Origin: Tubiluchus corallicola
Lineage: Eukaryota; Animalia; Priapulida
Length of the DNA stretch: 64,000 nucleotides
Assembly (NCBI GenBank): GCA_030141605.1
Contig: JAQGDQ010000641.1
Location: 56,338-120,337, forward strand
Direction of reading: 5' to 3'
In this document: positions 4,181 through 29,200 of the stretch, piece after piece
Position numbering within the stretch: position 1 is the stretch's first letter
Layout of the letters: every line of letters starts with the position of its first letter
The notes under the pieces: model-generated
What the model saw: the letters and a program-made list of their open reading frames with translations, nothing else
What the model was told of the DNA's origin: nothing
Databases searched by the model: none
Program-made: the position numbers and the translations under genes

Positions 4181-4441
4181 CCTGAAATTGAAAAACATTC
4201 AACTTTTTGAAAACTGAAACATTCTTGCCAAGCGAAGTGCATACAGTTTATACGCGAATCAAAAAGTTTCGGAAACGTGTATTTGTGCAGCCGTGTGTAA
4301 AAATTTCAAGCGTTAATGATTACAAGCCTAAAATTACAACCGATACAGTAATGCAGCATGATCTGAAATGTATATGCCTTGTGCACAATGCGAGTTTAAA
4401 GAAACGTTTTAATTTCATTCACATTTGTTTTATATCACTTA

Positions 4442-4900
4442 CAGGGATGAGAATTACAAATTGCAAAAAACTCTGAAACAGGCCGCGGGCAGCAACAAAT
4501 AGCAATTTTGTGACCATAGAGAGCCTCTAAATGGACTTAAAATATCAATTACCTTGTTTCAGGCATAATATAAAATACCCAACTATCAAGGATACATGAT
4601 ACCTAATTGTCTCAAAAACACCTAAGTACTGGCAGCTCCTATGCAAAAGTATATAAAAACTGTCTGCAATTGACTCAAATAACTCCGCACAATTGATTCT
4701 ATATTTTTATACATAGAGATATACACATGGTTACACTGATGTACGTGATGTAAACAAAGTGACGGCCTGCCACCTAGCGGTCAGTTTGTGAAATAATGTA
4801 CTGGATCCGTAAAAATTTTCTCAACGAATTTACGCGATTTACAAAAATAGCACTACTGGTCTTCCAAAAACTCGGAATTCGCGGAAAATTCTCATCCCTG
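4442..4900 (+). mobile_element. MITE with CAGGGATGAGAAT TIR and 6-bp TSD (hAT6-like)
   Basis: TSD CACTTA; about 150 bp past the DSTYK stop. Confidence 0.9.
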
Positions 4901-5047
4901 CACTTAACAGTTTAGTTCGGCCACAACATTCTGGTTTCTTATGAATTTGACTTGGTATATCACCACGCTAACAAGAATTAATCAAATTAAGAAGAGTTAT
5001 CACACACACACACGCAGCATCCATCTCTAATTACAACGGTTACTTCC

Positions 5048-5220
5048 TCACGACTTTCCAGTTTTTAGTTTGGCGGCAGATCTATAACAATTCATGATCT
5101 CTGTGAGTTTGGTTTGCACGTCGCCCAGTAGGGGTCTCTTCTGTGGCGTGCCCTCCCAGCAGCGAGACATTAGCGTCCAGCACTCGTCGTCACATTTAGA
5201 TGGGCGTTCAGGTCTTGTTC
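5048..5220 (-). CDS. DSTYK: DSTYK terminal coding exon 14
   Basis: [33 protein letters not shown]...TGKS*; CAG acceptor. Confidence 0.95.
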
Positions 5221-8200
5221 CTGAAACCAAACATATATAAAGAAGAGTATTCGCCAGTCATACTACAGACATATTCTTGGCATGCCTTTAGCCACTGTGG
5301 TACTATTTATTGATTGCAGATTACTCCACGTGGCGTTTTATATTAATTAAATTAGCTCTCATTTCTCACAGAGCATTAGATTTTATGCTATTTAGTATGC
5401 AAAATTTTCTTACTGGTAGATAGTGAAAAGTGATTACTACAAGCTAAGTTTTCACACCCCCTGATTTAGTTTCACTTTTATATCGACGCATTGGTCTCAT
5501 CCCAAACCGTAATCTTGTTTCGACATGTTGATCTCCTCCTAAACCGTGCTTTTATTTCGGATACAAAGAAATCTGTTGACTTTTCATTTATGATTGACAA
5601 GTGATCCTGGATCTATTATAAAACAAGAATGCTCGTATTTTGCTCTTGACACCGGGGTACTGTCGAGTTACGGGAACATTATGCCAAAAGCCGTGAAAAG
5701 GAAGAGAGTTTCAAATGACAACTCAATATGTACGTCACAATAGCCAGTTTTTTTTTGTTAAGAAATAATTTTATTCGTTTTGTCCTCTTAGAGATTTTCA
5801 GCATTGGAGAAAAAAAGACGTTACCTTTTCGGACGACACTCCAAAGGTGGTCTTTACTTGTACATTGTTCAAATAACATGGGCAAGCGAACGTGTCCAGC
5901 GCACAAGTACCAGAAAAGGATCCCGAAAGCGTACACATCCACGCTGCTGTCGTACTTTCCCGTGAAAAGCTCCGGGGCCATGTGAATAGGCGTGCCCACG
6001 ATGCTTCCCGACATCATGGCTTCCGGTTTACAAAACCCCAGATCGGTGATCTTGGCTCGATTTTTAGAGTCCAACTGAAACGAGAAAATGTGAACTCGGC
6101 GAAGCCGCATTAAAGAAGAAACTCTACTTACATAAAACTAAAAAAATCATCTTGAAATTCTTTATGCTGCCTTATTGTACACAGAGCTTGCATTAGCAGT
6201 AACGCTGTATAAAACTTGAACTCTTTCGATGACCGTTAGGCGAAGCCATTTTGTTGGTAGGTCAATCGAATGGAGTTTACATAACACTGAGTACAAATTA
6301 AGTCTAATTTTCTTGCAAACAAATTAAGACTAATTTTCTTGCAAACACATTAAGACTAACTTTCTTGCAAAACAAATCAAGTCTAATTTTCTTGCAAAAA
6401 AATTAAGTCTAATTTTCTTGCAAAAGAATTAAGTCTAATTTTCTTGCAAAACAAATTAAGTCTAATTTTTTCGCACTAAGTCTAATTTTCTTGCAAACAA
6501 AATAAGACTAATTTTCTTGCAAAACAAAATAAGACTAATTTTCTTGCAAAACAAATTAAGTCTAATTTTCTTGCAAACAAATTAAATCTAGTTTTCTTGA
6601 CCAACCTTCTAGTAACAAAGAAAGCAACTCACTAGGACGTTTTTGAGTTTAATGTCTCGATGCACCAGCCCCTGACTATGCAAGAACCGCAGTCCGTCTA
6701 TGACGTCCATCGCGACGGTCAGACGACATAACCAGTCGATACCGGCCTTGATGGCGGAGTACAGATCCCTCTGCATACGATCCATGATGAGCAGGACGGC
6801 CGGAGACGAGCCGTTGCCGTATGAATGATCGATGACAGATCCACGTATTGAGACTATGCGCTCGTGCTCCGGTAAACTCCTGGAAAGTTGCGACTTGTTT
6901 ACAATTACTATGAAATGTTGGTGTTGTTAAATGTACTGAATCCGGAACCGGATCGCAGGATTCGGTAACTTTAATGAATAATTTTTAATCTGCTTTTCTT
7001 GAGTAATGATTGAAAGGGCCACATTAAACTTTCCCACAATTTCCCATGGGCCACAGGCAGTTTGATCAAGGAGCCAAGTACAGAAAGGCCTAATAACAAT
7101 TTTTTTGCATCCGACCTGTGTACATCATTACTACTACACTCAAGAAACTATTTTAGAAGTTATTAAAATTTACATTACAAACCATATATTTTTACTTTCA
7201 GGACAGATAGTGGTAATTTCATTACAATGCATATTAGTAATGTGTATCACACAGTCTGTGTAGTACAGTGACATTAAACTACAACCGTCTTGTAAGGGTT
7301 AATGGCATCCGATCTAGAAGAAAAAACTACCTGCACTATCTTTGGGATCGTGGCACGGACTTCAGCAGGATACACTCAATTAATCGCTCGGGCCGCACTT
7401 TCATTAGCTTGACAAATCTCTTCACGGGCCGCACAAATTCTCTCGGCGGGTCGCAATTTGCACACCCCTGGTCTAGACAGTCAAATTTTAATCATCGTTT
7501 TGTTTTCAATTCAATAGATTTATTTTGCAATAAACACATGCATATGCATTACATGTGCATCGATAATCAGTGTTTGGTAATACGAAATTATGATACAATT
7601 CATGAATTCTGCACTAGAGACCTAAGAAGCTAGCTTATGCTAGTCCATTAGAATTGTTACAATAGGAAAGCAAATGTATTAGTCGCTTGCTGCTCCACCT
7701 GTACGTAAAACTAAGAACTAAAAACCGTTAAAATACCGTGAATAGAAAAATTCAAGAGCTAGGTCATTCCAATGCTTTTCGTCAGGAGGCACCACAGATT
7801 TCAGAGCGCAACGTTCGTAGTTACCCCACTTGTGACAGGCATAGACCACCCCATACTGACCTCTTCCAATTTCTCTTCCCATGTCAGGCATACCTGCAAA
7901 AATTACATACCATCAGTCCATTACTACAGATTTAAAGGATAAGAAAAGGGGTATCTGAAGTAGGTTTTAGAAAAATCGCTTTACGAAATTATATTACTTT
8001 ATAGCAATTTTATGCGTATATCGTAGTTGCATCAAAAGAAATTTTTGTTTGTTTTCATTTTAAATCTCCGACAATACTGTTCCTATGTCACCATTACATG
8101 ACGTCACCTACGCACAACGTAAATCAAGGGAAGAAAAGACGATCTTAAATTATGTCCCAAAAACTTTCCATGCAAATCTACATTACTTAGCACTTCGTTA

Positions 8201-11200
8201 GAAAGACTTATTTAACTAGAAAAGAAAATTTTTAATTATTTAAAATGTTTTCACCAATTGGTAAAATGTCGCTGACTCACCTCCAGGGTGCACCACTAAC
8301 TAACCAAAAACGTATTTTTAATCTTATTGGCAAGATACATTAATTTAAAACTTTACTTAATTAGCAACGTGTGTGCTACGAATGAGCTGATTATTTTGTC
8401 AAACTTTACTCAATGTTATCTAAACTTGTTTCAAATGACTTATCATCAAAATGGCTGCGCCTAACGATCATCGCGAGAGTTTAAATTTACATGTTTTATA
8501 CAGCGTGACTGCCAACGCAAGTCTATGTAAGTGATATAAAATTTCAAGACAAATTTTTCAAGCTTTTTGTAAGTGGAGGGTTTTCTTGTGCTTTTCAGCT
8601 TTTGCAACTACAGTAAACTCTGCATAATTCTGATGTCTCAGGGATCAAAAAATCTGTCAGGGTTCCATGATGAGTCGAGTTAGGTGAAGATGCAAATTCT
8701 TGTTTGCTTGTAGATATTTATTGAAATGAGAAATGGCAGCTAAATTTTGATCTATTTTCTAAATGGTTGCATAAATAGCAATGGTCTCCAGTCTTGATAG
8801 ATAGCAAGAGCAGCTTCCCTTTGAAGATAAGAGAATATTTTTAATAAAATGTCCTCTTTTTAATCAACCTACAATACTAATGCTCAGACAGTGTAGCAAG
8901 TGAACAGTGAACCAGACAGTGTAGCTAGTGAACAGTGAACCAGACAATGTAGCAAGTGAACAGTGAACCAGACAGTGAAGCTAGTGAACCGTGAACCAGA
9001 CAGTGTAGCAAGTGAACTATGAACCAGACAGTGTAGCAAGTGAACAGTGAACCAGACAGTGTAGCAAGTGAACAGTGAACCAGACAGTGAAGCTAGTGAA
9101 CAGTGAACCAGACAGTGTAGCAAGTGAACAGTGAACCAGACAGTGTAGCAAGTGAACAGTGAACCAGACAGTGTAGCTAGTGAACTGTGGACCAGACACT
9201 GTAGCAAGTGAACAGTGAACCAGACAGCGTAGCAAGTGAACAGTGAACCAGACAGTGAAGCTAGTGAACTGTGAACCAGACAGTGTAGCAAGTGAACAGT
9301 GAACCAGACACTGTAGCTAGTGAACTGTGAACCAGACAGTGTAGCAAGTGAACAGTGAACCAGACACTGTAGCTAGTGAACTGTGGACCAGACACTGTAG
9401 CAAGTGAACAGTGAACCAGACAGCGTAGCAAGTGAACAGTGAACCAGACAGTGAAGCTAGTGAACAGTGAACCAGACAGTGTAGCAAGTGAACAGTGAAC
9501 CAGACACTGTAGCAAGTGAACAGTGAACCAGACACTGTAGCAAGTGAACAGTGAACCAGACACTGTAGCTAGTGAACTGTGAACCAGACAGCGTAGCAAG
9601 TGAACTGTGAACCAGACAGTGTAGCAAGTGAACAGTGAACCAGACACTGTAGCAAGTGAACAGTGAACCAGACACTGTAGCTAGTGAACTGTGAACCAGA
9701 CAGTGTAGCAAGTGAACTGTGAACCAGACAGTGTAGCAAGTGAACAGTGAACCAGACAGTGTAGCAAGTGAACAGTGAACCAGACAGTGTAGCAAGTGAA
9801 CAGTGAACCAGACACTGTAGCAAGTGAACAGTGAACCAGACACTGTAGCTAGTGAACTGTGAACCAGACAGTGTAGCAAGTGAACAGTGAACCAGACACT
9901 GTAGCTAGTGAACTGTGGACCAGACACTGTAGCAAGTGAACAGTGAACCAGACAGCGTAGCAAGTGAACAGTGAACCAGACAGTGAAGCTAGTGAACAGT
10001 GAACCAGACAGTGTAGCAAGTGAACAGTGAACCAGACACTGTAGCAAGTGAACAGTGAACCAGACACTGTAGCTAGTGAACTGTGGACCAGACACTGTAG
10101 CAAGTGAACAGTGAACCAGACAGTGTAGCTAGTGAACAGTGAACCAGACAGTGTAGCAAGTGAACAGTGAACCAGACACTGTAGCTAGTGAACTGTGAAC
10201 CAGACACTGTAGCTAGTGAACTGTGAACCAGACAGTGTAGCAAGTGAACAGTGAACCAGACACTGTAGCAAGTGAACAGTGAACCAGACACTGTAGCTAG
10301 TGAACTGTGGACCAGACACTGTAGCAAGTGAACAGTGAACCAGACACTGTAGCAAGTGAACTGTGAACCAGACAGTGTAGCAAGTGAACAGTGAACCAGA
10401 CACTGTAGCTAGTGAACTGTGGACCAGACACTGTAGCAAGTGAACAGTGAACCAGACACTGTAGCAAGTGAACAGTGAACCAGACACTGTAGCAAGTGAA
10501 CTGTGAACCAGACAGTGTAGCAAGTGAACAGTGAACCAGACAGTGTAGCTAGTGAACTGTGAATACTAATAATACAAAATTTACAATAGATTATGAACTT
10601 TCCGCTGCCTATAACACGTAATAACAAGAAAGAAAACAAATTTAAAAATGTTTGTATTCAACATGCTTCACTACAAAAAAATTTAAACAGGCCAACAAGC
10701 TAAGAATCACTTACCATAAAGAATCATATCTTTAATACTGGTGCTCTCTAAAGCGAGTCGAGCCAGTTGGGGTGCAAATCCCTTTCTCACCTTTAGCCGG
10801 GCTGCTTCCGTCTTTTCCAACCTAAACATTAGCCACAAGTAGGGACCAATTCACGTGTGGAATGCATATATAATCATGTAAACAGGTACACGCATCTCAA
10901 AATAATATTCTGAATAAGCTTATCATTTACTTGCAAGTGCTATATTTACTGTAAATAGGAAAAAAAGACGTGAAATGAATAAGCATTTTCACAGCTTCAT
11001 TGAGCGCACGTACATAGTTGGTGTACGTTACATAGGTAATTCATAATAAAAAGGGTTAGCAGTCAAGATTATTCACACCACTAGTAATAGAAACAACAAG
11101 ACGATAGTAAAAAGAATTAATAGGTCTAGTATTTCTGATAAAATATATGAGCAGTACAATTTCTTTCATATTAACACGTTACAATGTAATTTAGAATTGA

Positions 11201-14200
11201 TTGCAGCTGTGCTGTGTTTAAAAAAATAAAATCATTACATTCGAAGCATATGACACAGTCTCTAGGCATATTAAAAATTACCTGCTGGTTTTCTATCAAA
11301 GCCTTTTTCCTCACTGATCTCCTTGCCTAAATATCTTACCCATTTTCTAACCGATAACTACTACAGTTCAACGTGAAACATATACGTCGTAAATTAAAAC
11401 CAATTATGATATTAGTAACAGATTGCCGACCACAGAAAAATTTGTTTCTATCTTACCTCATGAGCTCAAAAGATGTCAGTAGGGAGGGAGAAAATTTTTT
11501 TGTGAATGTTTAAAGTTGAATCGTGGAATATTTAAAATCAGTCGAAATCAAAGTTCGTTTATTTCTCACTGGTTAGCAGTTTCACCTTGTAGTTACGGTC
11601 GCATAAATGCAAAAAGATATGTGATTGATACGTATATATATATAAAGTGTTTGCTAGTATATATATAGTTATAAAGGTAGTGGATATATTTGGTATTAAT
11701 CTTAATCACCAACATATTCAGTCTTGGAAAGTACCTACAATGCATTGCAAAATTATTTTACTTTACTATGCAGGTGACTGTGAATTTAAATTAGTTTAAA
11801 TTGGATGTTTTATTAATCCTGCCAGTGCGATTAGCTTTTTACTCTCCAATAAACTGCAGTAAAGCACGAAGTTGAAATTTTGATACTAATTCAAGTTAAA
11901 TTATCCTCGTATTTTTGCGATGTTTGAACATTCTTTTATTAAAACTTGTTAAGAACAAGTCAGATATTCAATCATTGCATCAGCCTTCTGAAATCGTCTA
12001 TTTTTGACTAGGGTTCGTTGGTTGCTGACGAGTCGTTAATAGAAGTGCTAGCAAACGCAATGCAAACAGCAAGGGAAGTGAATGATACGTATCTTTTCGT
12101 TAAATGGGACGGAAATTTCCCCGAAGCCCGATTCGTATTCTCAATTTTTTGTATAGCAGGGTTTTCGTAAGTCGAGGTTCCACTTTACCTCCCATGAAAT
12201 AACTCAACTACTACCACTGTAACATACCTTCCAGGAAATAACTCAACTACTACCACTGTAACATACCTTCCAGGAAATAACTCAACTACTACCACTGTAA
12301 CATACCTTCCAGGAAATAACTAAACTACTACCACTGTTACATACCTTCCAGGAAATAACTCAACTACTACCACTGTAACATACCTTCCAGGAAATAACTC
12401 AACTACTACCACTGTAACATACCTTCCAGGAAATAACTCAACTACTACCACTGTAACATACCTTCCAGGAAATAACTCAACTACTAATACTGTAACATAC
12501 CTTCCAGGAAATAACTCACCTACTAGCACTGTAACATACCTTCCAGGAAATAACTCAACTACTACCACTGTAACATACCTTCCAGGAAATAACTCAACTA
12601 CTACCACTGTAACATACCTTCCAGGAAATAACTCAACTACTACCACTGTAACATACCTTCCAGGAAATAACTCAACTACTACCACTGTAACATACCTTCC
12701 AGGAAATAACTCAACTACTACCACTGTAACATACCTTCCAGGAAATAACTCAACTACTACCACTGTAACATACCTGCCAGAATGTCGCATTTCTAACTGT
12801 CGCAACGACGACGAGAAGTTGTCATGGGAATTTTTTAAGCGCTCCTTAAACTGAGTGCAAATGCTCTTGCCTAGCCGTGATTCGCTGAGTTTACTGATGA
12901 TGTCACTAGCCACCGTCTCTTTCCACTGGCTGTCGATTTTAGGGGGCGTGGTCCAAGGCATGGAGTGCATCAACTGTAGTTTTAAATTACCAAATTTAGC
13001 GGTTAGGTTTTTGCTAATTTATGGAAAAATCATCCTGCTTTCTGAAATAATTAGATACCAAATTTGAAATAATTATGTAAGCTATTAGGCTAGCAAAAAT
13101 GTACTTCAATTTTTACCTGTTTTATTCGTTCCAGTAAAATCTGTATAAAAGAATTGGTATTTTTCACTGTGACTTCAACTTGATATGCTGCATTGAGAAT
13201 CTGAAAAATGTAAATAGCATTGTTTACGTCAATCAATTACCGTATTTTCCCATGTATAAGAGACCCCTTCAATTTTTAGGCAAAAATTCTGGAAAAAAGT
13301 TTTTTGGTAATGAATAACTTTATTCATCATAGAAATCATTAAATTCCTCATCACTCTCATCAAAAATATCAACTGGAGTCAGACCTTCAGCAATTCCAGC
13401 CAGTTCATCATCAGAGGAGTCACTGTGCTCAAAAATGGCATTGTCCTCTGTGCCGTCCATGGCATTGGAGATGCCACACTTCTTGAAAGATTTAATAATG
13501 ACCTCTGGCTTTACACCATTCCATTCTGGACTTACTCCCATGTATAAGAGACCCCCTATTTTTAAAGTGAAAATTCTTAGCAAAAAAGGGTCTCTTATAC
13601 ATGGGAAAATACGGTAAGTCATAAATCATTTATTTCGTGGCACGGACTTCAGCTGGATACACTCAATTATTCGCCCGGGCTGCACTTTCATTAGGTTGAC
13701 AAATCTCTTCGCACAAATTCTCTCGGCGGGCAGCTAGTAGCCCACGGGCCGCAATTTGCACACCCCTGTACTAAGCAGACATAATGAAACTAATCAGCAT
13801 CCCCTAGCTAGGACGTTCTACCTGTTGAAGAGCACCACTTGCTGTTGGAGATTCTTCTAAATCATTCTCACCTCCCTCCAAGCTTGATAAGCACCTCGTC
13901 AATGTACCTTGAGAAACAAAATACAAGTGATATTACTTAGAATCAAACCAGAATCATTAATATTGTTGCAGAGGCAGCCAAGAGGTTCAGGGTTCAAATC
14001 TGGATCAAACCATGTTGCGGATGAGAAAATAGAAGTGAAATATAAAAAAAATCAAACGGAAAATTAAGACGAATCTCTTCCTGCCTTCCTCATGCTGACC
14101 ATGACTACAGAACAGGTGCTTAAAGTGATAAACCCACCTGTCCGACTGAACAGGTATTACTACGCATTTATACCTGGTATTCAATGTCACTATGCAATGA

Positions 14201-17200
14201 CTTCATAGTGAATCGAACCATCACAATATACAGTCAACACTCATTAAACCGGGCTAATTGGGGGGGGGGGGTCCGGTTTAGCCGATTGTCCAATTTATCC
14301 GATATGCCTATATATGGTCTATATTATACAGGAATAATCACCGTAATAAGGCCTACATACATTGCACTATATTATATACTGTATATTACTTTAAAATAGT
14401 TAACCTGTGAGGATAAAGAAATTATTGTACAGTTGGTAGGCCGTGTTGTGTTTAGCGCTCCGGCTCGGACGGAAATCGGTCAGTTTCCTTTACCACAGAT
14501 GACGTCCATCTTATCCGATATCCGGGCTAACGGGGTCCGGTTTAACGAGGGTCGACTGTAGCGAGGGGTGGAAAATAAATGGCATTTCGCCCCCACGTAA
14601 CAATGCTTTGAATATTTGAATAGTTCTCTGGATTGCACTGTTGCTTTTTCCAGTAATTATCATTCAGTCTAAGATTATGTAAAAGTTATAAAATGAGGCC
14701 AAATGTTGAATTTGAACTGCATAAAAATCTATTGGTTATTTAACGTGTGCATTGTTTCAACGTCACAATGATTAAAACAAGATGCCTAGATTTGCAAAAA
14801 TCTCTATGTAAATATTAACACTATGAGGCCAAATGCTGAATTTGAATGACGTGAAAATATAATCAAGACATGCCTATATGATGTTCTGATGTCTATATGT
14901 GCTGTTGACTTGCTCGGTTTAATGAATTTTAATATTTTAAGGTAGCAAAACATAGAATCTATCTACTTTTTTATGTTTCCTCAATAAGGTAAATAGTTGA
15001 ATGCAGTATGAAAGTTAAAACCGTCCAGAAGTAGACCGGTAGTAAACACGGCGGTCAGTCATCCATTTACTGTCAAAACTAGGGGCTGTTTAACTGCGGT
15101 CGCCGAGTACTTTTCATTGCCAATCCGCTAATATCTTGGCATAAATATACGGAAGCATACATATTAGTTACCCGAACCAGCAAAAGAGGTTTAGCACAGT
15201 AGGGGGTGCACATTCCATTGATTCTTAGCATTACGTGTTTCAAACACTTAATTTCGCATATTTGTGTCGGGGAGAAAACTCAATGGAAAGGTATATTGAT
15301 TATTCACTGAAGCAGCAACGTAAAATTGATTTATACAATGGCTGGTAAGCCAGCAAATGTTACAAATGTGCACCTGATTTGATAGTAAATCAATGAATGA
15401 ATGAATACAAGAAATAAATTAAGCTTAGAGGAAAGACCAAACGATTGTTTAGACTCAATCTCATTTTAATTTGCTGTCCAAAATATAGATTTTCTTACTT
15501 ATAAAGTTAGGAATTGTTCCTTATATTTGAATAACTAGCTTAGAAAGTTAATTAACGGCAGCAGAACACAGCTAGTGCTTACGTCACAAACTAACCACAG
15601 TTTGTGCAATGGCAGGCATGTTCCCTTGTGCATCAAGCACGTTTGCATAAGTGTTACTGTCTAAACGCATGATGTCACAAAAATGGGCTCTACATCATAT
15701 GATGACATGAAACTAACACTGCAGTTCATGATCATGGTTATCACGGTACCACCTTCTATTTATCGGCCACGCGAATGTGACAAAAAGGCGCCGTTGCCAA
15801 TCTTAGTAGATTCACTGAGCCGTGCATAGCTTTGAAAGTTTAACATAATTTTAATATCCGAGGTAATTATTATTTAATCTAAGCTTTGATATAAAATACG
15901 CTATTGTAGTTTTCAACATTTTGAGCATTCTTTATTCTAGACTCGTGTTTACACAATCATCCGGTTTTCCTTTAAGAACACAAACATTAACAAAGGATTT
16001 TCTAATAGCAATGAAAAAAGTGACATCTAGTCACCCATCTAGTCACCTACCCGTATAATTCTCTCTCATAGCATTTACATAGTTGCAACGAAACAAGTCA
16101 CATCTAGTCACCTATCTAGTCACCTACCCGTATAATTCTCTCTCATAGCATTTACATAGTTGCAACGAAACAAGTCACATCTAGTCACCTATCTAGTCAC
16201 CTACCCGTATAATTCTCTCTCATAGCATTTACATAGTTGCAACGAAACAAGTGACAACTAGTCACCTATCTAGTCACCTACCCGTAAAACTCTCTCTCAC
16301 AGCATTTACATAGCTGCAACAAAACAAGTGACATCTAGTCACCTATCTAGTCACCTACCCGTAAAACTCTCTCTCATAGCATTTACATAGCTGCAACGAA
16401 ACAAGTGACATCTAGTCACCTATCTAGTCACCTACCCGTAAAACTCTCTCTCACAGCATTTACATAGCTGCAACAAAACAAGTGACATCTAGTCACCTAT
16501 CTAGTCACCTACCCGTAAAACTCTCTCTCATAGCATTTACATAGCTGCAACGAAACAAGTGACATCTAGTCACCTATCTAGTCACCTACCCGTATAACTC
16601 TCTCTCACAGCATTTACATAGTTGCAACGAAACAAGTGACATCTAGTCACCTATCTAGTCACCTACCCGTATAACTCTCTCTCATAGCATTTACATAGTT
16701 GCAACGAAACAAGTGACATCTAGTCACCTATCTAGTCACCTACCCGTATAACTCTCTCTCACAGCATTTACATAGTTGCAACGAAACAAGTGACATCTAG
16801 TCACCCATCTAGTCACCTACCCGTAAAACTCTCTCTCACAGCATTTACATAGTTGCAACGAAACAAGTGACATCTAGTCACCCATCTAGTCACCTACCCG
16901 TATAACTCTCTCTCAGATATTCCACTGATCCCGTGATCTGACCAGCAATTGCTTGATTAAGACGTTGCAGGATCAAATCTTGTATTTCACACGTGCAGAT
17001 CTGAAGCTCCCGCAGAGTCTCGATTTCACCGTTCTCTGCAACGGCGACACCTGCGGGAGAAAAAATACAACTAAGGGACAGACAAATGAAGAAACATACG
17101 AGCAGGTAGGCAGGTAGAGGTGTAAATAACTGAGGAGTCACGTGCTTCGTGATTAAAAAGGTTCAGTACTTGTTTCACACACCATATTGATTTATCTCGC

Positions 17201-20200
17201 CAAGAGAGGATGTATATACATGCAAAACATGGCTGTGGTATTTCTGCTGGTTCAGTGGCTCATTCTAGAGGCAAAGCCTTGATAACCAGCCAGGTTCCAG
17301 TACGTACAGCAACAACGTAGGACTCCGCTTGTACCAAGTTGCGTAAAAAGTAGATACACACATAAAAAGACGGGTAGTCAACAACACATGTATACAAACA
17401 TAGGTGAGTAGATGGTGAATATGTCATTAGGAGCACGTTTACTACTTACTACACAAATTGCTTCTGCCTGATCAGACAGTCAGAAATGTGCACTGTTAGA
17501 TCGTCTTAAATCTCTTACCGAATAGTAAAGTCTCGTTTTTGACAAAGGAAGATTTTAATGTCAAAGGCTGAGCGAAACTAACAATTATTATTACAAGGTT
17601 AAACGTATATACAATGAGATGAAAATAACAGTTAACACTTCTAAGCTAAACGAGTTTGCGACACGGATTATGACAGGCTAAGACCAGGGATGAGAATGAC
17701 AAATTGCAAAGAACTCTGAAACAGGCCGGGGGGTTGGGAGCTGCGTAGGCCCCCATGGGGGTTCAAAGGGGGCGAAGTCCCTTGCAGCCAGCAACAAATT
17801 GCAATTTTTTGACCATAGAGAGCCTCTAAGTGGACTTCAAATATCAGTTACCTTGTTTCATGCATAATTTAAAATACACAACTATCAAGGATACATGATA
17901 TCTAATTTTCTCAAAAACGCCTAAGTATTGGCCGCTCCTATGCAAAAGTATATAAAAACTGTCTGCAATTGACTCAAATAACTCCGCACAATTGATTCTA
18001 TATTTTTATACATAGAGATATACACGTGGTTACACTGATGTACATGATGTAAACAAAGTGACGGCCTGCCAACTAGCGGTCAGCTTGTGAAATAATGTAC
18101 TGGGTCCGTAAAAATTTTCTCAACGAATTTACGCGATTTAGAAAAATGGCACTACTGGTCTTCCAAAAACTCGGAATTCCGCGTATCCGAGGGAAAATTG
18201 TCATCCCTGTAAGACGGACGACTCAACGAACCTTAGATTCCCCCGACTTCCGTTTTTATATCCAAAATAAAGATATGTTACCGAAACGAAAATATCGCGA
18301 CCTTTTTATCGCTGAATCAAATGACAAACTGCATATTATAAACTATATTAGAGCAGCAAGCCTCCTTACCTTCGAATTCATAATTCCTTGCCTCGTCTAG
18401 CAACTTCTCCCGCATCTCAGTTATAGTCGTTGCTATGACGACGCGTATCTCCTCCTGCTTCTGCGTCGCGATGGCCATCAACGACTGATAGAGATCTAGC
18501 TCCTTCTGTCTGGCATACTCGATCCGCTTCGGCGTAATCAGCATGTCTCGGGCCATGTCGAAAGCCGTCAAGATGAACATCTTCAGACATCTGGTGTGGG
18601 CCGTCTTGAGGATGGTGGCCGCCTGCACTAGGTGGCTCTGTAGCACCCGATGAACGAAGAAAATCACGCTGCTGTGGAACTGCTCGAAGTTCTCGACGAA
18701 CTCGCATTCGACGGCGACGTCGGTGGCGCCGAGGTGCAACTGCAACTGGCCGTCGTTTGGCACCAGACTGAGATATCCTGCCTCGCATAGTTGTTCGAAT
18801 AGCCTGAAACAGATCACATTTCAATTCAATTCAAAACGTGCATTTATTTCCATATTCATGATATAACCGAGGCAAGTAAATGTATTTATTTATCACAATG
18901 GAAATAGGATGGCGAAAGACCAAGAAGGTCAACTGGTCAAGCCATCCTTCAATGGATGTATGTGATTATTGGGATGACACTGTAACTATTTCACTCATGA
19001 ATAGTAGTGAAATTACATTATTACTATTTTACTTAGCAACTTGATCTGTTTAAAATTCACTAATCAACTTTAAATAACTGAAGGATGAAAATGCAATCAA
19101 AAATATCTAAACATACAGGAAAATGATGAAATAGGATGGTGAAAGACCAAGAAGGTCAACTAGTCAAGCCATCCTTCATTGGATGAATGTAATATAAACG
19201 TTATGGTTAAGAAAATAATCAGTCTGAAGCTCGATGTAGATAACAGCTGTTGTCGTCATCATTAACATCGCCGTGAGGCACCATTGTATTTACAATAATG
19301 TAGTAAAGTGGTAAAATGAAGAAACAACAGAAAAATGATTCAGTACGCTAATTGGAGTAAGGAATCTAGGCATTTTTATATATCTAATCTTGACACATTA
19401 GGAGGACAGATGCTTGACCAGTTGCTCAGCGCCTGGGCCTTCACCCAGTACATGACCAATTAAGGCTGAGTAGACCTAGAAAGGAGGCCAGAGATTCCTG
19501 TTAGAGTGGAATGTGGCTCGAAAAATGCCGACATTAATGGGATTCGAACCCATAACCCCTGGATCGGCATTACGTTACCCCTGAATCACATTTATAAAAA
19601 AACATTGGAAAAGAAAATGCTTCAACTAGTTGGAAAGTTTCTGCAACTTTCATACGGAATTATCCCACGTGTAGTTTATTCATTTCTTTATTCACTCAAT
19701 GGAAACCCTTGCACAAGATCGCTCAGCATGGTGGAGTGCCATCACCACAGGGCCTATGATAGCAGAGGCGAAAAGAATTGAGGAGGCAGAGGAGAAGCGC
19801 AGGAGACACTGCCCAACAACAGGTCAAAACATCCAGCCTCACCTGTGCCAAATGCCAAAGAAGTTTCCAGGCCAGAAGTCAGTCACCTTCGAGCTCATCA
19901 AAGGAATGACAAACCCCCAAACTGACCTTTTATCCCTGTCACTATGGTCATCTTCGATGCGAAGGACGAACATCATCAATCAATCAGTTTATTTATTTAC
20001 TTGGTATAATTCATTGGAAAATATTTGATTGAAACATTTTTAGTTGTGTAACACATGGCTTCACTCACATACTTTAGAAACGACACTGACGAATATACAA
20101 GCAATGCATTCGCGTGCTTTTTGAATACGATGCCACCAAGGCAGGGATGAGAATGACAAATTGCAAAAAACTCTGAGACAGGTTGGAGGTTTGGGGTCCG

Positions 20201-23200
20201 CGCAGACCGCCATGGGGGTTCAAGGGGGCGAGCCCCTTGCAGCCAGCAACAAATTGCAATTTTGTGACCATAGAGAGCCTCTAAGTGGACTTAAAATATC
20301 AATTACCTTGTTTCATGCATAATTTAAAATATCCAACTATCAAGGATACATGATACCTAATTATCTCAAAACCGCCTAAGTACTGGCCGCTCCTATGCAA
20401 AAGTATATAAAAACTGTATGCAATTGACTGAAATAACTCCGCACAGTTGATTCTATATTTTTACACATAGAGATAAACAAGTAGTTACACTGATGTACGT
20501 GATATAAACAAAGTGACGGCCTGCCAACTAGCGGTCAGCTTGTGAAATAATGTACTGGGTCCGTAAAAATTTTCTCAACGAATTTATGCGATTTACAAAA
20601 ATGGCACTACTGGTCTTCCAAAAACTCGGAATTCCGCGTATCCGTGGAAAATTCTCATTCATGAATTAGGACAACATACAAGCAATGCATTCGCATGCTT
20701 TTTGAACAAGATGCCACCAAGGGCCATGGCCTCACAGTATCTGTAACCCAGGAGCCCACAAAACCAAAATCCGGCCCTGACGCCACCGGACGAGCTAGAT
20801 CAGCATCCCGCAGTTTGTGTTCACGTAAAGTTAAGAATAACGTTAAATTTATAATAAATACTTGGAATTAAGGTGAAACTGTACATAGAGATTTCACATT
20901 TGTTTCAAAAAATTTCTGGTTTAGTCTTTGATGTTTACAAAGACCTAGCGAGGTCGCCGAAAAACGCCGATCAACCCAGATATTACACGGGGAAAAAAGC
21001 ACTAAAAACAATAAGCGAAAATTTATATATAAAACAGCAAAATTCAACAACACTCGTCATCATTTGGATCACATCTTCTAATGACGAATTAACTCTTGCT
21101 TTGCTTCTCATTTTAGTATTGTTAGAACCTCGTCAGACATCATCAACAAAATCACTGACACCGTTGCTACACTCTCCATCATAAAACACTAAAAATTATT
21201 TATCGATAACAACATGCGGACAAAATTTTGCACAAACAATATCGTGCGTTACTTTTTACCATTAGTAGGTGCTGAAAACAAGTTGCTAGGTACCAAAAAA
21301 TTGTACAAAAACGGAAAGACGGTATTTGAAAAGTAATTTTTCGATATCCTATCTACATCAAAAATTAGAATTTTAACAGTAAAACTACAGGCACTACTCT
21401 AGGTCAGTTTTAATATAAGCAAAGCAGTTAATAAGAATGCAAAATTTTTTGCAACTATCTCATTAATAGATAACTGTGAATCATAATAATTGTAATTAAT
21501 GCATTAGAACACGGGTGTGCAAATTGCGGCCCGCGGGCCACTTGCGGCCTGCCGAGAGAATTTGTGCGGCCAGCAAAGAGATTTGTCAACCTGATGATAG
21601 TGCGGCCCGGGCGATTAATTGAGTGTATCCAGCTGAAGTCCGTGCCACGATCCCAAAGATAGTGCGGGTAGTTTTTTCTACTAGATCAGATGCCATTAGC
21701 CCCTACAAGACGGTTGTAGCTTAATGTCACTGTACTACACAGACTGTGTGATACACATTACTAATATGCATTGTAATGAAATTACCACTATCTGTCCTGA
21801 AAGTAGAAATATATATGGTTTGTAATATAAATTTTAATAACTTCTAAAATAGTTTCTTGAGTGTAGTAGTAATGATGTACGCAGGTCGGATGCAAAAAAT
21901 TGTTATTAGGCCTTTCTGTACTTTGCTCCTTGATCAAACTGCCTGTGGCCCGCAGGAATTGTGGGAAAGTTTAATGTGGCCTGCCTAGTCAGATAATTTG
22001 CACACCCCTGCATTAGAATGAAGAAATAAACGTAAATAAACACAAACAAATAAAAATCAGCAAATAAGTAAGCAAAATTCTAAACAAAGCTGTTCGGAAA
22101 CAGTTGACTACGGCTACACCGGTGAAGAAGCAAGCGCTACACAGCCTTGTGCGAAAACTCAAAAACCAGAAAGCCAAAAAAAATCAAGATGAGTTGTGCA
22201 TGCAGCAGCGAGAATCAAACCTTGATTTGTGCCGATGGCTGGCCTTTCGGTGGGCGGTCGTAAATGATGGTTTGGACTTATTCCGAGGTTTAGCGTCAGA
22301 TTTTGAAGGCGACCGACGCCTCTGACAGTGTGAGCAGAGCTGATGCGGGCTTAACCTACAGCAGATTAAACATACATTTAGCTAATAGGTAAACACAGTC
22401 GCAGGTTATCACACATAATTATTTGCACAACTGAGACAGAAGTTCATACACCTCACTGTCGCATATGTATAAAGGGTCTTGCACGCGTTCAGCGGCATCA
22501 TGATAGCCCAACGGCCAAATAATTGCAGGAGCCACTGAAAAATTGCGAACCAACCAGAATTTCAAACCAGAAACTTGTGCTTTGATGGCTGAGCTACTGG
22601 GACAACTTACCAGAGTTAGACTGAATTCTCATCATAACCGTTCACAATCAATAAGATCCAGATGTCTGATACAGATGTACATATTGAATGCTTTTAACAG
22701 TCGGAGCCTTTCTGTAGGGCATCCGATACAAACATTAAGAGACCTGTCATACTTACAACAAACAGCAAAATAGCCAATTAGCTGAAGAAGGAGGCACTGA
22801 AAAATTTCGACCAAATTAGGACTTGAACCTGGTAGCTTGTGCAGCGGTTCACAAACACAGGGTTCCCACGGAATTTTAAAATAAATTTCCCTGACTTTTC
22901 CACGACCAAGATAAGCAGAAATTGCTTTAAAGGTATACATATTCAAACATTTTTGTGTACGGACATTCATACATATACTGATATATAATGTGTCAGCCAA
23001 TCATTATTTTTGGAACAGAAATTGAAACTGGGAGCCTGTCGTAGCAAAATTTTATTTGAACACGAATCGCTGAAAAATATGTTTGGAAAAATAACGGCTC
23101 GCGGAGATTATTTTTGCACCCTATTTTCATCATTTTCCCTGACTTTTTACCAAATTATCTTTTTCCCTGACCTTTCCATGACTTTCCAGGATAGCCTGTA

Positions 23201-26200
23201 TTTTCAAGGATTTTCCCTGACCGTGTGAACCCCTATCCGTGGAAAATTCTCGTCCCTGGAAGCGGCCATGCCATTTGAGAAAACAAACAAGAGATACAGA
23301 ACGAAGCTGCTTGACGGAAAAGAACTCCAAAATGGAGTGGAAATGATGCACAGCATCCTTGCGGATAATTAAAATCTAGTAATTCGTTTGTTAGAGCTTA
23401 ATTAGAACGGCATTACCGACAGAACAGCGGTCATGATTTCGTTGTTCATTTGAGGCTGAGGTTATCCCACGCTGAAACCAAAATTGACCAACAGCGGTCA
23501 GTTGCAACCAGAACCAGAGGAAAGCCATAATAGAAGGAAAACATCCAAAGAATAGGGGTGAGCATCGAACGCTCGAATTCGATTCGAACGAGTTTTTTTA
23601 GTTCGAACTCGATTCGAATGCAATACTATAGATTCAGCACTTCAATCACACATGTTCCTGATCACTAAAACGATTGAAACATCATGCAATTACGTTCAAT
23701 CTCAATTCGAATTCGGTTCGAATTCGAAACACTGAAGTTCGGTTCGATTCGAATTCGACAGTCACAAATTCGGTTCGATTCGAATTCGCTTTCTGGTAGA
23801 GAATGCTCACCCCTACCAAAGAAATGAAAGAACGCAAGTTTGCAGAGGCTAATAATTGCTAAACGCTCATGCAACTGCTCAACGGATTTCAACAAAATAC
23901 GGTTTACCTTAAAGACGTCTTTACAGACTTCTGATGATGCTGACGGCGGCCGGTCCTAAACCGCGGCATGCGCATCGACTGAGACTGAGACGACATGTGC
24001 TGGTCAGATTCCGTCAAGTCCGAAGGACCGCTGCACACGAACAAGATCGGCAGTCCGGGTGCTACGTGCTGGAGATCCCTCAATTGTTCAAGATCCTAAA
24101 AGTAAAAAATTAAAACAAAAAGTAAATTGGGTTTGTTTTGAAGTGTTTGTGTTTTGTTAGTGTTTGTTTTGAAGTATGATACCACACACGATGGTCAATA
24201 AGATGCTACTTAAATTACGAAAATGAAAAAAAGCCCAAAGAGGGGGGGGTGTAGCCGGTACGCTGCTCCCTGGCCCATGAAGTCCCGGGACCCATAAATA
24301 TTACAGTTTGTACGTCGGCATGACCAGTATTCGTGTCGATCCGAATGCATTTTTAATAGTTGCGTTCTGCTGTGATTAGCGTCTTTTTGTATACTGTCTT
24401 TCTGAGAAGGGTGGTTGATTCGATAACCTTTGGTTTTTCACCACCCTTTCTCCCATGTTCGTTTGTATTTTTGTATATTTTATTGTAAAATTATTGTAAA
24501 TTTATGGAGAAAAATAAAAAAAAATTACTCTTACCTTAGCAAATCTCAAGGTTAAGTTAACCTTCTCTATTTGACAAATTCATAATGTCCACAGAACATC
24601 CAACAGTACATAAATTTACACTTTTCTGAATCATTTACGTTTACAACACCCTGATTAGGGTTAACACTTTCATACCCGTTGTATCCCGTGGGATACAAAA
24701 ATATTTTTTGCCTTTAAAAATAGTAAAATTTTAAAACTGACAGTTATTTGGTCTGTTAATAGTTATTTTGATTTAAGCCAATAACAATAGACTAAAAATA
24801 GTGATAAAATGGCAAACTAGAAAAACTACGTAGCATAAAGAACTGCGCAAGGTACAGTACTTTAGAGACGACTTTGTACAGATCAGCATAGCATGCATAC
24901 TAAATGTCTCAAATACTTTAAAAAATTATCAGCAGTTGCAAAATGAAGCATATTTTATGCTTCCATTGAATCCCAATGTATCCCGTGGGATACAGGCTAT
25001 ATTTAGCATGCGGGCACAGGTAGAAAAAATAATTATGTGTAAACAAGATAGACATACTGAACAAAAGTACCAGGCCAGAAAATTTTTTCTTATTACGAAA
25101 TAATTTGGGACTTAAAGGGTTAAATGGCTGTTGACACTGCCAGAAATTGGTGTATGAAACAGGTCCACATGTGTAAACCTAATCTGTTAGCTACGCAAGT
25201 TTGCCGACATGTTTGTTCAAGGATTTGCTATGATTGTTGAAGCTTGTTCTGCCAATATGTAAATATATTCCCCATACAGTAACCTTTATCATGTAGAATC
25301 TAGACCACAAATATTACAGTGGTAGGTATTAAAGAATGTGCACCCAATCAGTAACACACTAGGCATTATATAGAGTACACTCATCATACGCCCGTCACAT
25401 CTATTGTAGACATTGGGCAGGCAGAATTCTAAAATAAAAGAAATCTGCCTTCAGACAGGTAAACGCAGCAGTAATCCAGCAAAAAACTAGACACTGCTAC
25501 GCCAGTGGCTTGTCAGCACCACTTCCGTTTTACAATCTTCAACAATTCATTGTCATCATCATCATCATCATCATCATCATACGCCCGTCACATCTATTGT
25601 AGACATTGGGCAGGCAGAATTCTAAAATAAAAGAAATCTGCCTTCAGACAGGTAAACGCATCAGTAATCCAGCAAAAAAACTAGACACTGCTACGCCAGT
25701 GGCCTGTCAGCACCACTTCCGAAGAGTACACTGTACAAAAGCAAACCCTACTACGTATATAAACAAAAACAGTACTAGACAACATTTGTGTAATTTAGAA
25801 TTGGTCTGTATAATTAAATCTGCTTGTTAAATATTAATGGCTGTCCGTGTTCATATAAAACTTGGAATGTTCAGCTCCTGAGTTTTTTAAATCCTTGGTA
25901 TATTTGCAATTCAATTCAATAGATTTATTTCACAATAAACATATACATATGCATTACGTGTGCATCGATAATCAGTTTTTATTAAAGCAAAATTATGATA
26001 CAATTCATGAATTCTGTGCTAGAGACCTAAGAAGCTAGCTTATGGTAGTCCGCTAGAATTAGTAATGAGAAAAATTTTACAATATATTGCTAATGGTTAG
26101 TGTGAGTTACAGTGGGCGTTAGTAGTGTTAATTTTCATAATTACGATGTAAACTGATGGTCGGTACAGAGAAATGATAAATGCTTTAACACATTAGCTAA

Positions 26201-29200
26201 GCATTTGTGGAGGAGGCAACACTTGTTTAGACTATATGGAGGTGCGCATTGCATATATACGGAAGGGAAGTAATAATTTAAATATTATTGCTTTACTCAA
26301 AAATGTATTAATGACATGTATAAACAACTTTTTTCTCATACTTAATAATGATTATATTTAACATATCTCTTGACTGATACATGATGCAGTGATATTGTAA
26401 ACATATGTCTTGACTGATACATGATGCAGTGATATTGTAAACATATGTCTTGACTGATACATGATGCAGTGATATTGTAAACATATGTCTTGACTGATAC
26501 ATGATGCAGTGATATTGTAAACATGTGTTTTGACTGATACATGATGCAGTGATATTGTAAACATATGTTTTGACTGATACATGATGCAGTGATATTGTAA
26601 ACATATGTCTTGACTGATACATGATGCAGTGATATTGTAAACATATGTCTTGACTGATACATGATGCAGTGATATTGTAAACATATGTTTTGACTAATAC
26701 ATGATGCAGTGATATTGTAAACATATGTCTTGACTGACACATGATGCAAGGATATTGTAGTCCATCAAATAAATGTCGTATGTCAAATTTAAACCTGCAT
26801 TTCATTTATAAAAAACTATCTCTGAAATCAGTGTTGGCATCCCGCAAGCCTACAGCACCTGGTATTCGTAGGCGGTCACCCATCCAAGCATCCAATGTCA
26901 CAACTTACACGTATATTAATGCAAGCGCTGAAGAACAAGTTGTGGACTACAATACTGCAGACTTTGCGGAAAACTCCACATGTATGGAGCTGCCATAATC
27001 TGATCCATAACAAGTTCGGCAATGGACGGAATTAACCCCCTTTCAAGACGTGTCGAAAGATTTTCTAATAATTATTTCCTGATTGGTGCATCAAGGTCGA
27101 AAAACCAGAATGAAGTAACAGCAGCTAATCAAACACCGCAGATAATTCAATATCAGACGTTTGAAATGAACAGAATGCAACTAAAAAGCAAAAGTTGTAA
27201 GGTAATAAACGTTAACCCTTTCAGTCCCAAATTATTTTTTAAAAGGAAAAAATTTTTTGGCTTGGAACTTTTGTTCCCAATGCATCCTGTTGGATACACA
27301 ACATTCTTTGTCATGTGCAAAAAAAACAAAGTCCGGCTTTTTTAAAAACACAACAAAAGCAAAAAATGTGCTTCATTTTGCAACTGCTGATGATTTTTTA
27401 AAGTATTCAAGACATTTAGTATGTATGCTATGCTGATCTGTACAAAGTCGTCTCTAAAGTACTGTACCTTGCACAGTTTTTTATGCTATGTAGATTTTCT
27501 AGTTTACCAATTTTATCACCATTTTTAGTCTATTGTCATTAGCTTATATCAAAATAACTATTAACAGATCAAATAACTGTCAGTTTTAAAATTTTATTAA
27601 TTCTAAAGGCAGAAAATATTCTCGTATCCCACGGGATACAACGGGTATGAAAGGGTTAAACTACGTAAAAGTTCAAACTCATGGATATTACTGACAAGAG
27701 AAAATGAGGCACTTAACATGAAAAACAACTAAAAATATCAAGAAAAATGTGTTAACATTGCTTGCTTTTTTTGTTGTTGCATTCATGACTTGTTCAGTTG
27801 TTGTTTTAATATTTAATTGCATTATTTGCTTGCTGTTTTTCATTGGTACAATTATAATATAACTGCTTTGCGTTTGTTTATTTGCTACACTTAAGACCTA
27901 ATCACGTATTTATTCACTTAACTATGTATTCTGCCGTGCTTTATAATATTTCAAAGTTATATAGGGGTGGCTGACTCGATGACCTCCTGGTCTTTCGCCA
28001 CCCCATCTCTACATACTTTACATAATTTGTTGTATTTGCGCTATAAATATTATGTTAGAGATGAATAAACTTTGAATTTGAATGAACGGAATGAATAACA
28101 CAGTTCCTAAATACAGCATTACAAACATACAACGACCAAGATAATATACTGACCCAAATTTTGCCTGTAGCATTAATTTTTGAAAGCCCCTTTAATGAAG
28201 ACTTTCCCCGTGGGTGTAGACATTTCAAAGTTACATAATATATTTATTATTACATATAACTCTTATGTATAGAGCATGGTAGTCATTTGGTAGGTCATTT
28301 GCCTAGATAAAAAGCAAAGTTTTTAAAAAGCAAAATGCAATTAACATTTCTTAACACGTGCCTTTTCAAACTAAAGAATTTGCTTTGCCTGTACGGGTAG
28401 AGAAAATATGGCTTACGTGGTCATACATACATGCGTATCAAATGGAATGAATGAGCCCTTTCACAGTTCCAGCGATTGATGATGATCATGAAAACGTCAA
28501 AGTTTAAGTGTACCAGACAACGCATTTGCGTACACTTGACAACGCCTAGGACCCCATCCTACTGTAATAGCAATAGTTTTAACAGTTAGCTAGAACCTTA
28601 CCTATTTCATTTTTTCTTGTTTCCAAACAAGATCCAGCTAGTAAAGCACTCTACTAACAGATACTCTACTGCACATACTAACAGATAATCAAGTAAAGTC
28701 CACATAAAAAACAACTGAAGCTTCCGTATTGATGCGATGGGAATAAATGATTCGGTACTCAACCAAATCGGTTTTCAAACACTTTTTAGGAATGAATTAT
28801 GGTCGAAAACCCAGGTATGACTGTAATAATAATCTATTATGGGATTTAACTTACCTGAGGTGAAAGAACTTCTTGACCTATTGCATAAATAACAAGAGGC
28901 AGAACACCATCCGAGCAACGCATCCAGATCTGCGCCATAGACGACTCCGCATTGCTTGGACTGACTATCAACTGCGCACGATCCTTCAGCAACAGATTGT
29001 TCAAGGTCACGTCCAAAATGGCGCAACCGTTGGCGACGTCGTTTGGATTGACTTCAATGTCCACCAGGGGAATGCAGCATCCCGGCGACAACGTGTCGCA
29101 TTCCAGCGGCGCGACTAGTTCGTAATTATCCGGAAGTATGAGACCGATGCCCATTTTGTGACCATATCGGAACGAGACCATCCTCCACGGGCTGTTGACG

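What the first reader, a model, noticed from the sequence alone, without database searches (positions are those of the whole stretch)
12184..12790. In-frame splice-donor ladder: a 39-nt minisatellite multiplies the exon 9 5' splice site
Seen: the array starts exactly at the exon 9 donor (GGCAG|GTATGT). Each of 14 further units ends GGAAG|GTATGT, and a last one ends GGGAG|GTAAAG. The unit is 39 nt, and every copied donor is in phase 2 like the real one. The frame stays open for 11 units ([13 protein letters not shown] repeated) until a single G>T variant creates TAG at 12320-12322. Known: AAG|GTATGT is a good U1 match, comparable to the native site. Inference: choosing donor n would insert n x 13 hydrophobic residues just upstream of the kinase domain, while donors past the stop would trigger NMD. 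This would be a VNTR-tunable protein-length or dosage dial; alternatively the extra donors may be silenced U1 decoys.
Basis: partly seen in the sequence, partly recalled or inferred. Interest (0 to 1): 0.8.

Follow-up and report, generated by a model that had tools for sequence, protein, structure and literature searches.

The report
Repeated splice donor in DSTYK intron
A 39-base repeat copies the splice signal at the end of a kinase (DSTYK) exon 15 more times into the next intron, and a second exon of the same gene has a similar repeat; this layout is already known from human and lancelet genes, and the cell likely keeps using the first, genuine signal rather than making longer proteins.

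Summary
The array is real: 15 units of 39 nt start at the donor of exon 8 (not 9) of an intact 13-exon invertebrate DSTYK. All copied donors are in phase, and unit 12 holds a TAG. DNA-run contigs join both array ends to their flanks. It is a known kind: a junction-reiterating minisatellite or 'mirage' (F7, CBS, 6-16, ABCA7; amphioxus Adh3, globins), where the first donor dominates and at most the next one or two leak. This scan noted the same kind in at least 8 other genomes. The 'dial' reading is weak. In-frame plus open arises by chance about 1 time in 6. The same gene has a second, 77-nt ladder whose 11 identical donors all lead to a stop. The insert would put Pro-Gly and hydrophobic residues in the middle of a predicted 72-residue helix, where 0 of 28 homologs have an insertion. 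Contigs of two runs show the native donor as the perfect CAG|GTAAGT, stronger than the copies. No RNA run covers the gene, so donor use is untested. Verdict: new member of a known kind, low interest.

The parts
5048..32148 (-). DSTYK (dual Ser/Thr and Tyr kinase) gene, 13 exons, 902 aa predicted
   Evidence: all 12 introns GT-AG, no internal stop, 49-53% identity over about 900 aa to the best full-length homologs
12774..12973 (-). Exon 8 (200 nt), ends ...HSG + first two bases of Arg; native donor after 12774 (CAG|GTATGT in the window, CAG|GTAAGT in contigs of X1 and X2)
12189..12773 (-). 39-nt minisatellite, 15 units, starting at intron base +1; each unit ends in a copy of the donor context (14 x GGAAG|GTATGT, last GGGAG|GTAAAG); similarity reaches 7 nt into the exon (6 of 7 match)
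   Evidence: both ends joined to their flanks in X1 contigs
12514..12522 (-). Out-of-frame cryptic donor TAG|GTGAGT made by a variant in unit 7 (+254 nt); U1 duplex -10.6 kcal/mol against -6.8 for the typical copy
   Evidence: not seen in run contigs, which drop rare variants
12320..12322 (-). In-frame TAG in unit 12; donors 12-15 would include it
   Evidence: unchecked in raw data
10715..10821 (-). Exon 9 (107 nt), acceptor AG at 10823-10822; begins G + LEKTE
16008..16915 (-). Second donor ladder: 77-nt minisatellite, 11 copies of the exon 5 donor CGG|GTAGGTGA (GT at 16820...16050), each with 16-18 of the last 18 exonic bases; not a multiple of 3, TGA two codons into the intron
16898..17050 (-). 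Exon 5 (153 nt), whose 3' end seeds the 77-nt ladder

Best explanation
A 39-nt minisatellite starts at the exon 8 donor of an intact DSTYK gene and repeats that donor 15 more times in phase; it is likely a tolerated 'mirage' repeat in which the spliceosome uses the first, genuine donor and ignores the copies, so the mRNA and the 902-aa kinase would be normal. Origin (inferred): a short stretch at the intron start was duplicated between two similar motifs, the exon end (TGGCAG|GTA) and a site 39 nt downstream (TGGGAG|GTA). It then expanded by slippage or unequal exchange, which homogenised the interior units and left the edge units different. Selection (inferred from human and amphioxus cases): U1 and exon-definition factors commit to the first good donor after the exon, co-transcriptionally or by 5'-to-3' scanning. 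Here that is helped by the native site being the better U1 match. The in-frame, stop-free unit is likely a coincidence.
For: Anatomy shown. Same layout as F7 IVS7, where only the most upstream donor is used even when copies are made stronger; the same paper lists LMNB2 and PDGFA as using only the authentic site (PMC1557585). Amphioxus mirages do not disturb splicing and their edge units escape homogenisation (PMC3087553; PMC3902484). Internal control: the exon 5 ladder has 11 copies identical to the native donor from -3 to +8, all leading to a stop, yet the ORF is intact and conserved; first-donor preference in this organism is inferred from that. The native donor scores 8/9 (-8.3 kcal/mol) in the window and 9/9 (-12.1) in the X1/X2 contigs, against 7/9 (-6.8) for 13 of the 14 interior copies. 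0 of 28 homologs have an insertion at the junction, and 42 of 43 scorable loci have no extra bases there. The junction (R606 of the Owenia protein) is in the middle of predicted helix 570-641, block pLDDT 76-90. The insert has GRAVY +1.2 against -0.71 for the flanks and ends in Pro-Gly. Of 16301 sampled 39-nt pieces of this gene's introns, 7598 are stop-free in a given frame; times 1/3 gives 0.16.
Against: No RNA from this gene was seen, so donor use is inferred. In 6-16 and CBS the two nearest copies are also used, and in ABCA7 one unit is retained in a minor isoform. In-frame products here would escape NMD. In the window's allele the native donor is only one match better than the copies. Local folding does not hide the copies: predicted 9-nt accessibility is 0.004-0.13 for copies and 0.001 for the native site. 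The gene has exons of 434 and 503 nt, so exon length is a weak brake. The scanning data come from mammalian cells.
Confidence: 0.74

Rival explanations
1. Leaky ladder: the first one or two copies (12735, 12696) are used in a clear minority of transcripts, giving in-frame +13 or +26 aa forms that escape NMD. These would be splicing noise, probably misfolded, not a selected function. They may be more common on alleles whose native donor is GTATGT than on GTAAGT alleles.
For: [quoted passage not shown] ABCA7 retains one VNTR unit (PMC5954066). The copies (7/9, -6.8) are as good as several real donors of this gene (5-9 of 9; -4.4 to -12.1). They are not masked by predicted structure.
Against: F7, LMNB2, PDGFA and the amphioxus mirages show no such products. 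The run-contig allele has a perfect native donor.
Confidence: 0.17
2. Adaptive dial: donor choice and repeat number tune the spacer length before the kinase domain, or tune dosage through NMD for donors past the TAG.
For: All 15 copies are in phase and 11 units are open. Repeat depth relative to unique depth is lower in a second sample (about 7-fold against 10-16-fold), a weak hint of length variation. ABCA7 VNTR length was examined for effects on splicing (passages).
Against: Chance 0.16. The second ladder in the same gene is out of frame. The site is mid-helix and length-invariant in 28 of 28 homologs. A stronger out-of-frame donor lies inside the ladder at 12519. The intron position is shared by 0 of 43 scorable loci, so there is no conservation to support a function.
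Confidence: 0.04
3. The array works as DNA: each interior unit holds the palindrome TTCCTGGAA, which fits the STAT-binding GAS consensus TTCN3GAA (consensus recalled, not from a call), so the array could be an intronic enhancer whose strength scales with copy number.
For: 14 copies in the array; TTCCNGGAA occurs 0 times elsewhere on the + strand of the window, TTCN3GAA 13 times (0.008 per 39 nt).
Against: Found post hoc among many possible motifs; no binding or expression data; one chance motif is multiplied by any repeat expansion.
Confidence: 0.03
4. The last copy (12189) is the real donor and the units form a coding repeat in the main protein.
For: An earlier, unchecked note of this scan describes such a case in another gene (e1-9353532).
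Against: TAG in unit 12; the last donor is the weakest match (6/9); homologs are colinear with the 12774-10821 junction.
Confidence: 0.01
5. The array is an assembly artefact.
For: Both edge units differ between the window and the X1 contigs: the first unit by 3 bases (also in X2), and the last-unit contig has 3 differences from the consensus where the window has 2. No contig showed the window's own exon-plus-GTATGT join.
Against: X1 contigs join exon 8 to a unit and the last unit to the intron. Repeat words are about 7-16 times deeper than unique words in 4 of 4 runs, and the window holds these words 10-12 times. At most the edge bases or the count are wrong, or they are a second allele.
Confidence: 0.01

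Closest known systems
Human F7 intron 7 37-bp VNTR (Borensztajn et al. 2006, PMC1557585; seen: part 1 of 6 with abstract and introduction, 12 passages, the Discussion)
   Same: Minisatellite at an exon/intron boundary with few exonic bases in the unit, nearly the same period, a row of repeated 5' splice sites competing for one acceptor.
   Different: F7 has 5-9 units with copies identical to the native site and a period that is not a multiple of 3. Here there are 15 units, in phase, and the copies differ from the native donor at -3 (also at +4 in the run-contig allele). F7 splicing was tested; this one was not.
Amphioxus 'mirage' minisatellites (Adh3, troponin C, globins BflGb6 and BflGb9, PGBD5; PMC3087553, 6 passages; PMC3902484, 1 passage; supplements not read)
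   Same: Tandem copies of an exon/intron boundary in an invertebrate; edge units escape homogenisation; several per genome; normal splicing reported.
   Different: Different phylum (closest hits here are priapulid). The 39-nt unit holds only about 7 exon-like bases; the 77-nt ladder (18 exonic bases) is the more typical mirage.
Human 6-16 (IFI6) intron 2 and CBS intron 13 minisatellites (known only through the introduction and reference list of PMC1557585; the 6-16 paper PMC306954 is not held)
   Same: Repeated donors behind the authentic one, 15-25 copies.
   Different: There the two nearest copies are used as well; here use of the copies is unknown.
ABCA7 intron 18 25-bp VNTR (PMC5954066, 6 passages)
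   Same: Array starts exactly at the GT of the donor; about 590 bp in the reference.
   Different: One-unit retention is out of frame in ABCA7 and was observed; here it would be in frame and is unobserved.

Membership tests
Junction-reiterating minisatellite ('mirage', F7 type) | Tandem array whose first unit lies at or across an exon/intron boundary | tested here: met
   TRF array 12186-12780 reaches 7 nt into exon 8, 6 of 7 bases match
Junction-reiterating minisatellite ('mirage', F7 type) | Splice signal repeated in the units | tested here: met
   15 further AG|GTA donors, 6-7 of 9 consensus matches
Junction-reiterating minisatellite ('mirage', F7 type) | Homogenised interior, diverged edge units | tested here: met
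   11 of 15 units identical; last unit differs at 2 bases; first unit differs at 3 bases in X1 and X2 contigs
Junction-reiterating minisatellite ('mirage', F7 type) | Copy number varies between alleles (VNTR) | tested here: inconclusive
   Depth ratio about 10-16 in sample S1 and about 7 in sample S2; the tool states depth is no copy number, and X4's unit is not shown to lie at this locus
Junction-reiterating minisatellite ('mirage', F7 type) | The most upstream donor dominates; mRNA mostly normal | not testable with these tools
   No RNA holder listed; the one possible RNA run laid 0 contigs
DSTYK | Full-length orthology with a C-terminal kinase domain | tested here: met
   Named hits are mostly DSTYK; 902-aa model aligns end to end at 49-53% identity with the 12 best hits listed; exon 12 matches solved kinases
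Coding VNTR / protein repeat | Units lie in the spliced ORF and the frame stays open to the used donor | tested here: not met
   TAG in unit 12; 0 of 28 homologs have an insertion
Recursive (ratchet) splice sites | A YAG acceptor with a pyrimidine tract directly before each donor (feature recalled) | tested here: not met
   Units end in GGAAG or GGGAG, with purines before the AG
Intron gained by tandem duplication at an AG/GT site (Rogers model, as described in PMC3087553) | New intron made of copies of the flanking exon sequence | tested here: not met
   Only 6 of the last 7 exonic bases recur in the unit, and 1367 of the 1952 intron bases are outside the array. The intron position does look lineage-specific: 0 of 43 scorable loci share it

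The most novel reading that the evidence does not exclude
The ladder is live: in this likely priapulid DSTYK, several in-phase copies are spliced, and repeat number plus the allelic strength of the native donor (GTATGT against GTAAGT) set how much kinase carries 13-residue inserts in its long pre-kinase helix, or is lost to NMD. That would be a heritable, selected protein-length and dosage dial made from a mirage repeat. It would also be a natural two-ladder test (in-frame exon 8, out-of-frame exon 5) of first-donor scanning outside chordates.
Probability: 0.05. Interest if true: 0.65.

Novelty: new member of a known kind. Interest (0 to 1): 0.15.

Why it matters
On the likely reading it matters little: one more mirage repeat. 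Two small points of value remain. One gene carries two donor ladders among five intronic arrays (121 of 100000 random placements gave two or more), which suggests donor-spanning repeats are favoured in this genome, as proposed for amphioxus. And the pair, one in frame and one out of frame, allows a clean test of first-donor preference in a non-chordate without NMD hiding the result. If the copies were used and tuned by repeat number, it would be a repeat-controlled isoform dial in a conserved kinase.

Tried and rejected
No whole genome is held, so mirage frequency could not be measured genome-wide. Run search on 4300-6130: no RNA holder listed. X6 (RNA by guess) laid 0 contigs; X5 laid 3, none on the exons; X4 is DNA, since one contig runs across exon 6 into the intron without a joint. 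None of this is evidence on expression. No protein from this organism appeared in two homolog searches, so no annotated isoforms could be inspected; the third search was not used. The Owenia locus is not on record. The crinoid locus L001 lacks an intron at this position and has one 22-bp intronic array away from junctions. My first exon model had off-by-one boundaries and stops; it was fixed by snapping to AG/GT. The idea that units pair through the TTCCTGGAA palindrome and mask the copied donors was not supported. MaxEntScan was not available; consensus counts and U1 duplex energies were used (U1 complement recalled). Recursive splicing, a coding repeat and intron birth from the array were considered and rejected (membership tests). 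Paper searches: VNTR + UPF3A + splice donor gave 0 papers. DSTYK + splice donor + tandem repeat at 2 of 3 terms gave 666 papers; none of the 12 listed held both DSTYK and tandem repeat. PMC10078293 (12 passages) gave no donor-ladder case in what I saw. PMC306954 is not held.

Full report
OBSERVATION. The minus strand carries 15 units of 39 nt from 12773 to 12189 (TRF 12186-12780, 97% matches, score 1127). 11 of the 15 units are identical; units 7, 8, 12 and 15 each differ at two bases. The native donor is CTGGCAG|GTATGT after 12774. 14 copies read GGAAG|GTATGT and the last reads GGGAG|GTAAAG. All lie at multiples of 39, so all share phase 2. The reading frame runs through 11 units and stops at TAG 12322-12320.

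THE GENE. A search with one exon returned 40 proteins among 269 candidates, most of the named ones called dual serine/threonine and tyrosine protein kinase, with Priapulus caudatus at the top (61%). tblastn with six homologs placed the exons. After snapping to AG/GT, 13 exons from 32148 to 5048 give 902 codons with no internal stop, 49-53% identical to the 12 best hits listed (a first try with off-by-one boundaries failed). The ladder follows exon 8, not exon 9. The best match over exons 8-9 is P0041 at 71%, whose species name was cut off in the listing. The organism is probably a priapulid or near one; two unchecked notes on this genome say the same.

IS IT IN THE RAW DATA? No genome is held. 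The run search listed 6 runs and no RNA holder. An X1 contig joins exon 8 to a first unit, and another joins a last unit to the downstream intron. Repeat contigs are deeper than unique ones: 1700-1865 against 177 in X1, 97.7 against 6.2 in X2, 46.6 against 3.3 in X3, and 67.7 against about 10 in X4, a different sample. The window holds these 31-letter words 10-12 times. The tool warns that depth is no copy number, so this shows a real multi-copy unit, not a count. In both X1 and X2 the only contig that joins the exon to the intron differs from the window at 12770, 12761 and 12760, which makes the native donor CAG|GTAAGT. No contig shown has the window's own join. This is either the other allele of a heterozygous animal (two alleles at depths 118 and 99 lie at 12971-13051) or an error in the window's first unit. 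I cannot tell which. X1-X3 are one sample and may be the window's source, so they are not independent.

DONOR STRENGTH. Against MAG|GURAGU (consensus as in PMC1557585) and a U1 duplex (complement recalled), the window's native site scores 8/9 and -8.3 kcal/mol, the run-contig allele 9/9 and -12.1, 13 of 14 interior copies 7/9 and -6.8, the copy at 12345 7/9 and -8.4, and the last copy 6/9 and -7.7. The gene's 12 real donors range from 5 to 9 of 9. The copies are therefore usable but weaker than the native site. Local folding does not hide the copies: accessibility is 0.004-0.13 against 0.001 for the native site, and 0.000-0.090 for the gene's real donors. This counts mildly against my reading.

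INTERNAL CONTROL. The 77-nt array at 16008-16915 is a second donor ladder. 11 copies repeat the exon 5 donor CGG|GTAGGTGA exactly, with 16-18 of the last 18 exonic bases. 77 is not a multiple of 3, and read-through meets TGA two codons into the intron, so every copy leads to a stop. If identical donors were chosen at random, 11 of 12 transcripts would be lost. An intact, conserved ORF suggests the first donor wins in this organism (inference). Of the five arrays of three or more copies and period above 20 in the gene span (four other TRF rows in the span, three of under three copies and one trinucleotide run, were left out), two span a donor. 121 of 100000 random placements gave two or more (small n, simple null). 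So arrays here favour donors whatever the frame. Being in frame and open is not rare: 7598 of 16301 sampled 39-nt intron pieces are stop-free in a given frame, and one unit length in three is a multiple of 3, giving 0.16.

PROTEIN. The junction HSG^RLEK is ungapped in 28 of 28 homologs that reach the kinase glycine loop; R and L after it are 27/28 and 28/28 conserved. Of 80 loci held (79, 1), 43 could be scored. 42 have no extra bases at the junction, 1 has an intron elsewhere nearby, and none shares this intron position. 35 of the 42 are split genes and so likely genomic. The search favours compact genes, so loci with long introns may be among the 37 unscored. An AlphaFold2 model of the Owenia homolog (22-row alignment, mean pLDDT 73.4) puts the junction at residue 606, inside helix 570-641, with block pLDDT 76-90. 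The insert [13 protein letters not shown] is hydrophobic (GRAVY +1.2 against -0.71) and holds Pro-Gly. It would likely break that helix.

WHAT IS KNOWN. PMC1557585 (part 1 of 6, 12 passages, Discussion) describes the F7 37-bp VNTR whose first unit spans the exon 7 donor. Its copies work when the first site is destroyed but are otherwise unused, even when strengthened to a consensus value of 91; only a perfect site competes. Its introduction lists 6-16 and CBS (two nearest copies also used) and LMNB2 and PDGFA (authentic site only). PMC3087553 (6 passages) and PMC3902484 (1 passage) describe amphioxus 'mirages': tandem copies of exon/intron boundaries that vary in length, keep diverged edge units and do not disturb splicing. 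PMC5954066 (6 passages) describes the ABCA7 VNTR that starts at the donor GT, with a minor one-unit-retained isoform. Supplements were not read; they may hold isoform shares. One search returned 8 earlier scan findings of this general kind in at least 8 genomes; they are unchecked notes and are not counted as evidence.

MECHANISM AND VERDICT. Shown: the array, its phase, the stop, the second ladder, the conserved junction, and the stronger donor in run contigs. Predicted: the helix and the U1 energies. Inferred: birth by duplication between two similar motifs 39 nt apart, expansion by slippage or unequal exchange, and dominant use of the first donor. Untested: any RNA. Best reading 0.74, minor leak 0.17, adaptive dial 0.04, enhancer 0.03, coding repeat 0.01, artefact 0.01. 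It is a new member of a known kind. I found no paper on this locus among the papers listed, in a library that lacks most subscription journals. Interest 0.15.

Noticed in passing
window 16008-16915 (-): Second donor ladder in the same gene: 77-nt unit, 11 exact copies of the exon 5 donor, out of frame, with a 12-nt internal duplication in each unit.
   Followed up: yes
window 12770, 12761, 12760: Contigs of X1 and X2 show a different first unit, with a perfect donor. Its +13/+14 bases match the window's unit 8. Second allele or assembly error, unresolved.
   Followed up: partly
window 12942: One base is missing from a run of five in exon 8 in the low-depth runs X2 and X3 but not in X1: a sequencing error, or a heterozygous frameshift allele.
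   Followed up: no
window 10822-12773: Intron 8's position is shared by 0 of 43 scorable homologous loci and sits at a CAG|G site, so it may be a lineage-specific intron gain.
   Followed up: partly
window 12186-12780: Each interior unit holds the palindrome TTCCTGGAA, which fits the recalled STAT/GAS consensus; 14 copies, no other TTCCNGGAA in the window.
   Followed up: partly
window 8885-10563, 6293-6599, 26360-26759: Three more intronic minisatellites in DSTYK (28, 26 and 40 nt) that do not touch a junction; TRF lists 40 rows in the window.
   Followed up: partly
window 32868-35507 (+): Broken ORFs that look like a retrotransposon pol region (reverse transcriptase, RNase H, integrase motifs, judged by eye), just upstream of the DSTYK start.
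   Followed up: no
window 13225-13810: Very high-copy interspersed repeat in intron 6 (summed contig depth up to about 10^6 in X1), with an ORF remnant at 13320-13625 that looks like a pogo-type transposase by eye.
   Followed up: no
window 43019-43364 and 61759-62169: Degenerate 19-21-nt repeats at two places, some units of which read AGGTAAGT on the minus strand: donor-like motifs with no exon identified nearby.
   Followed up: no
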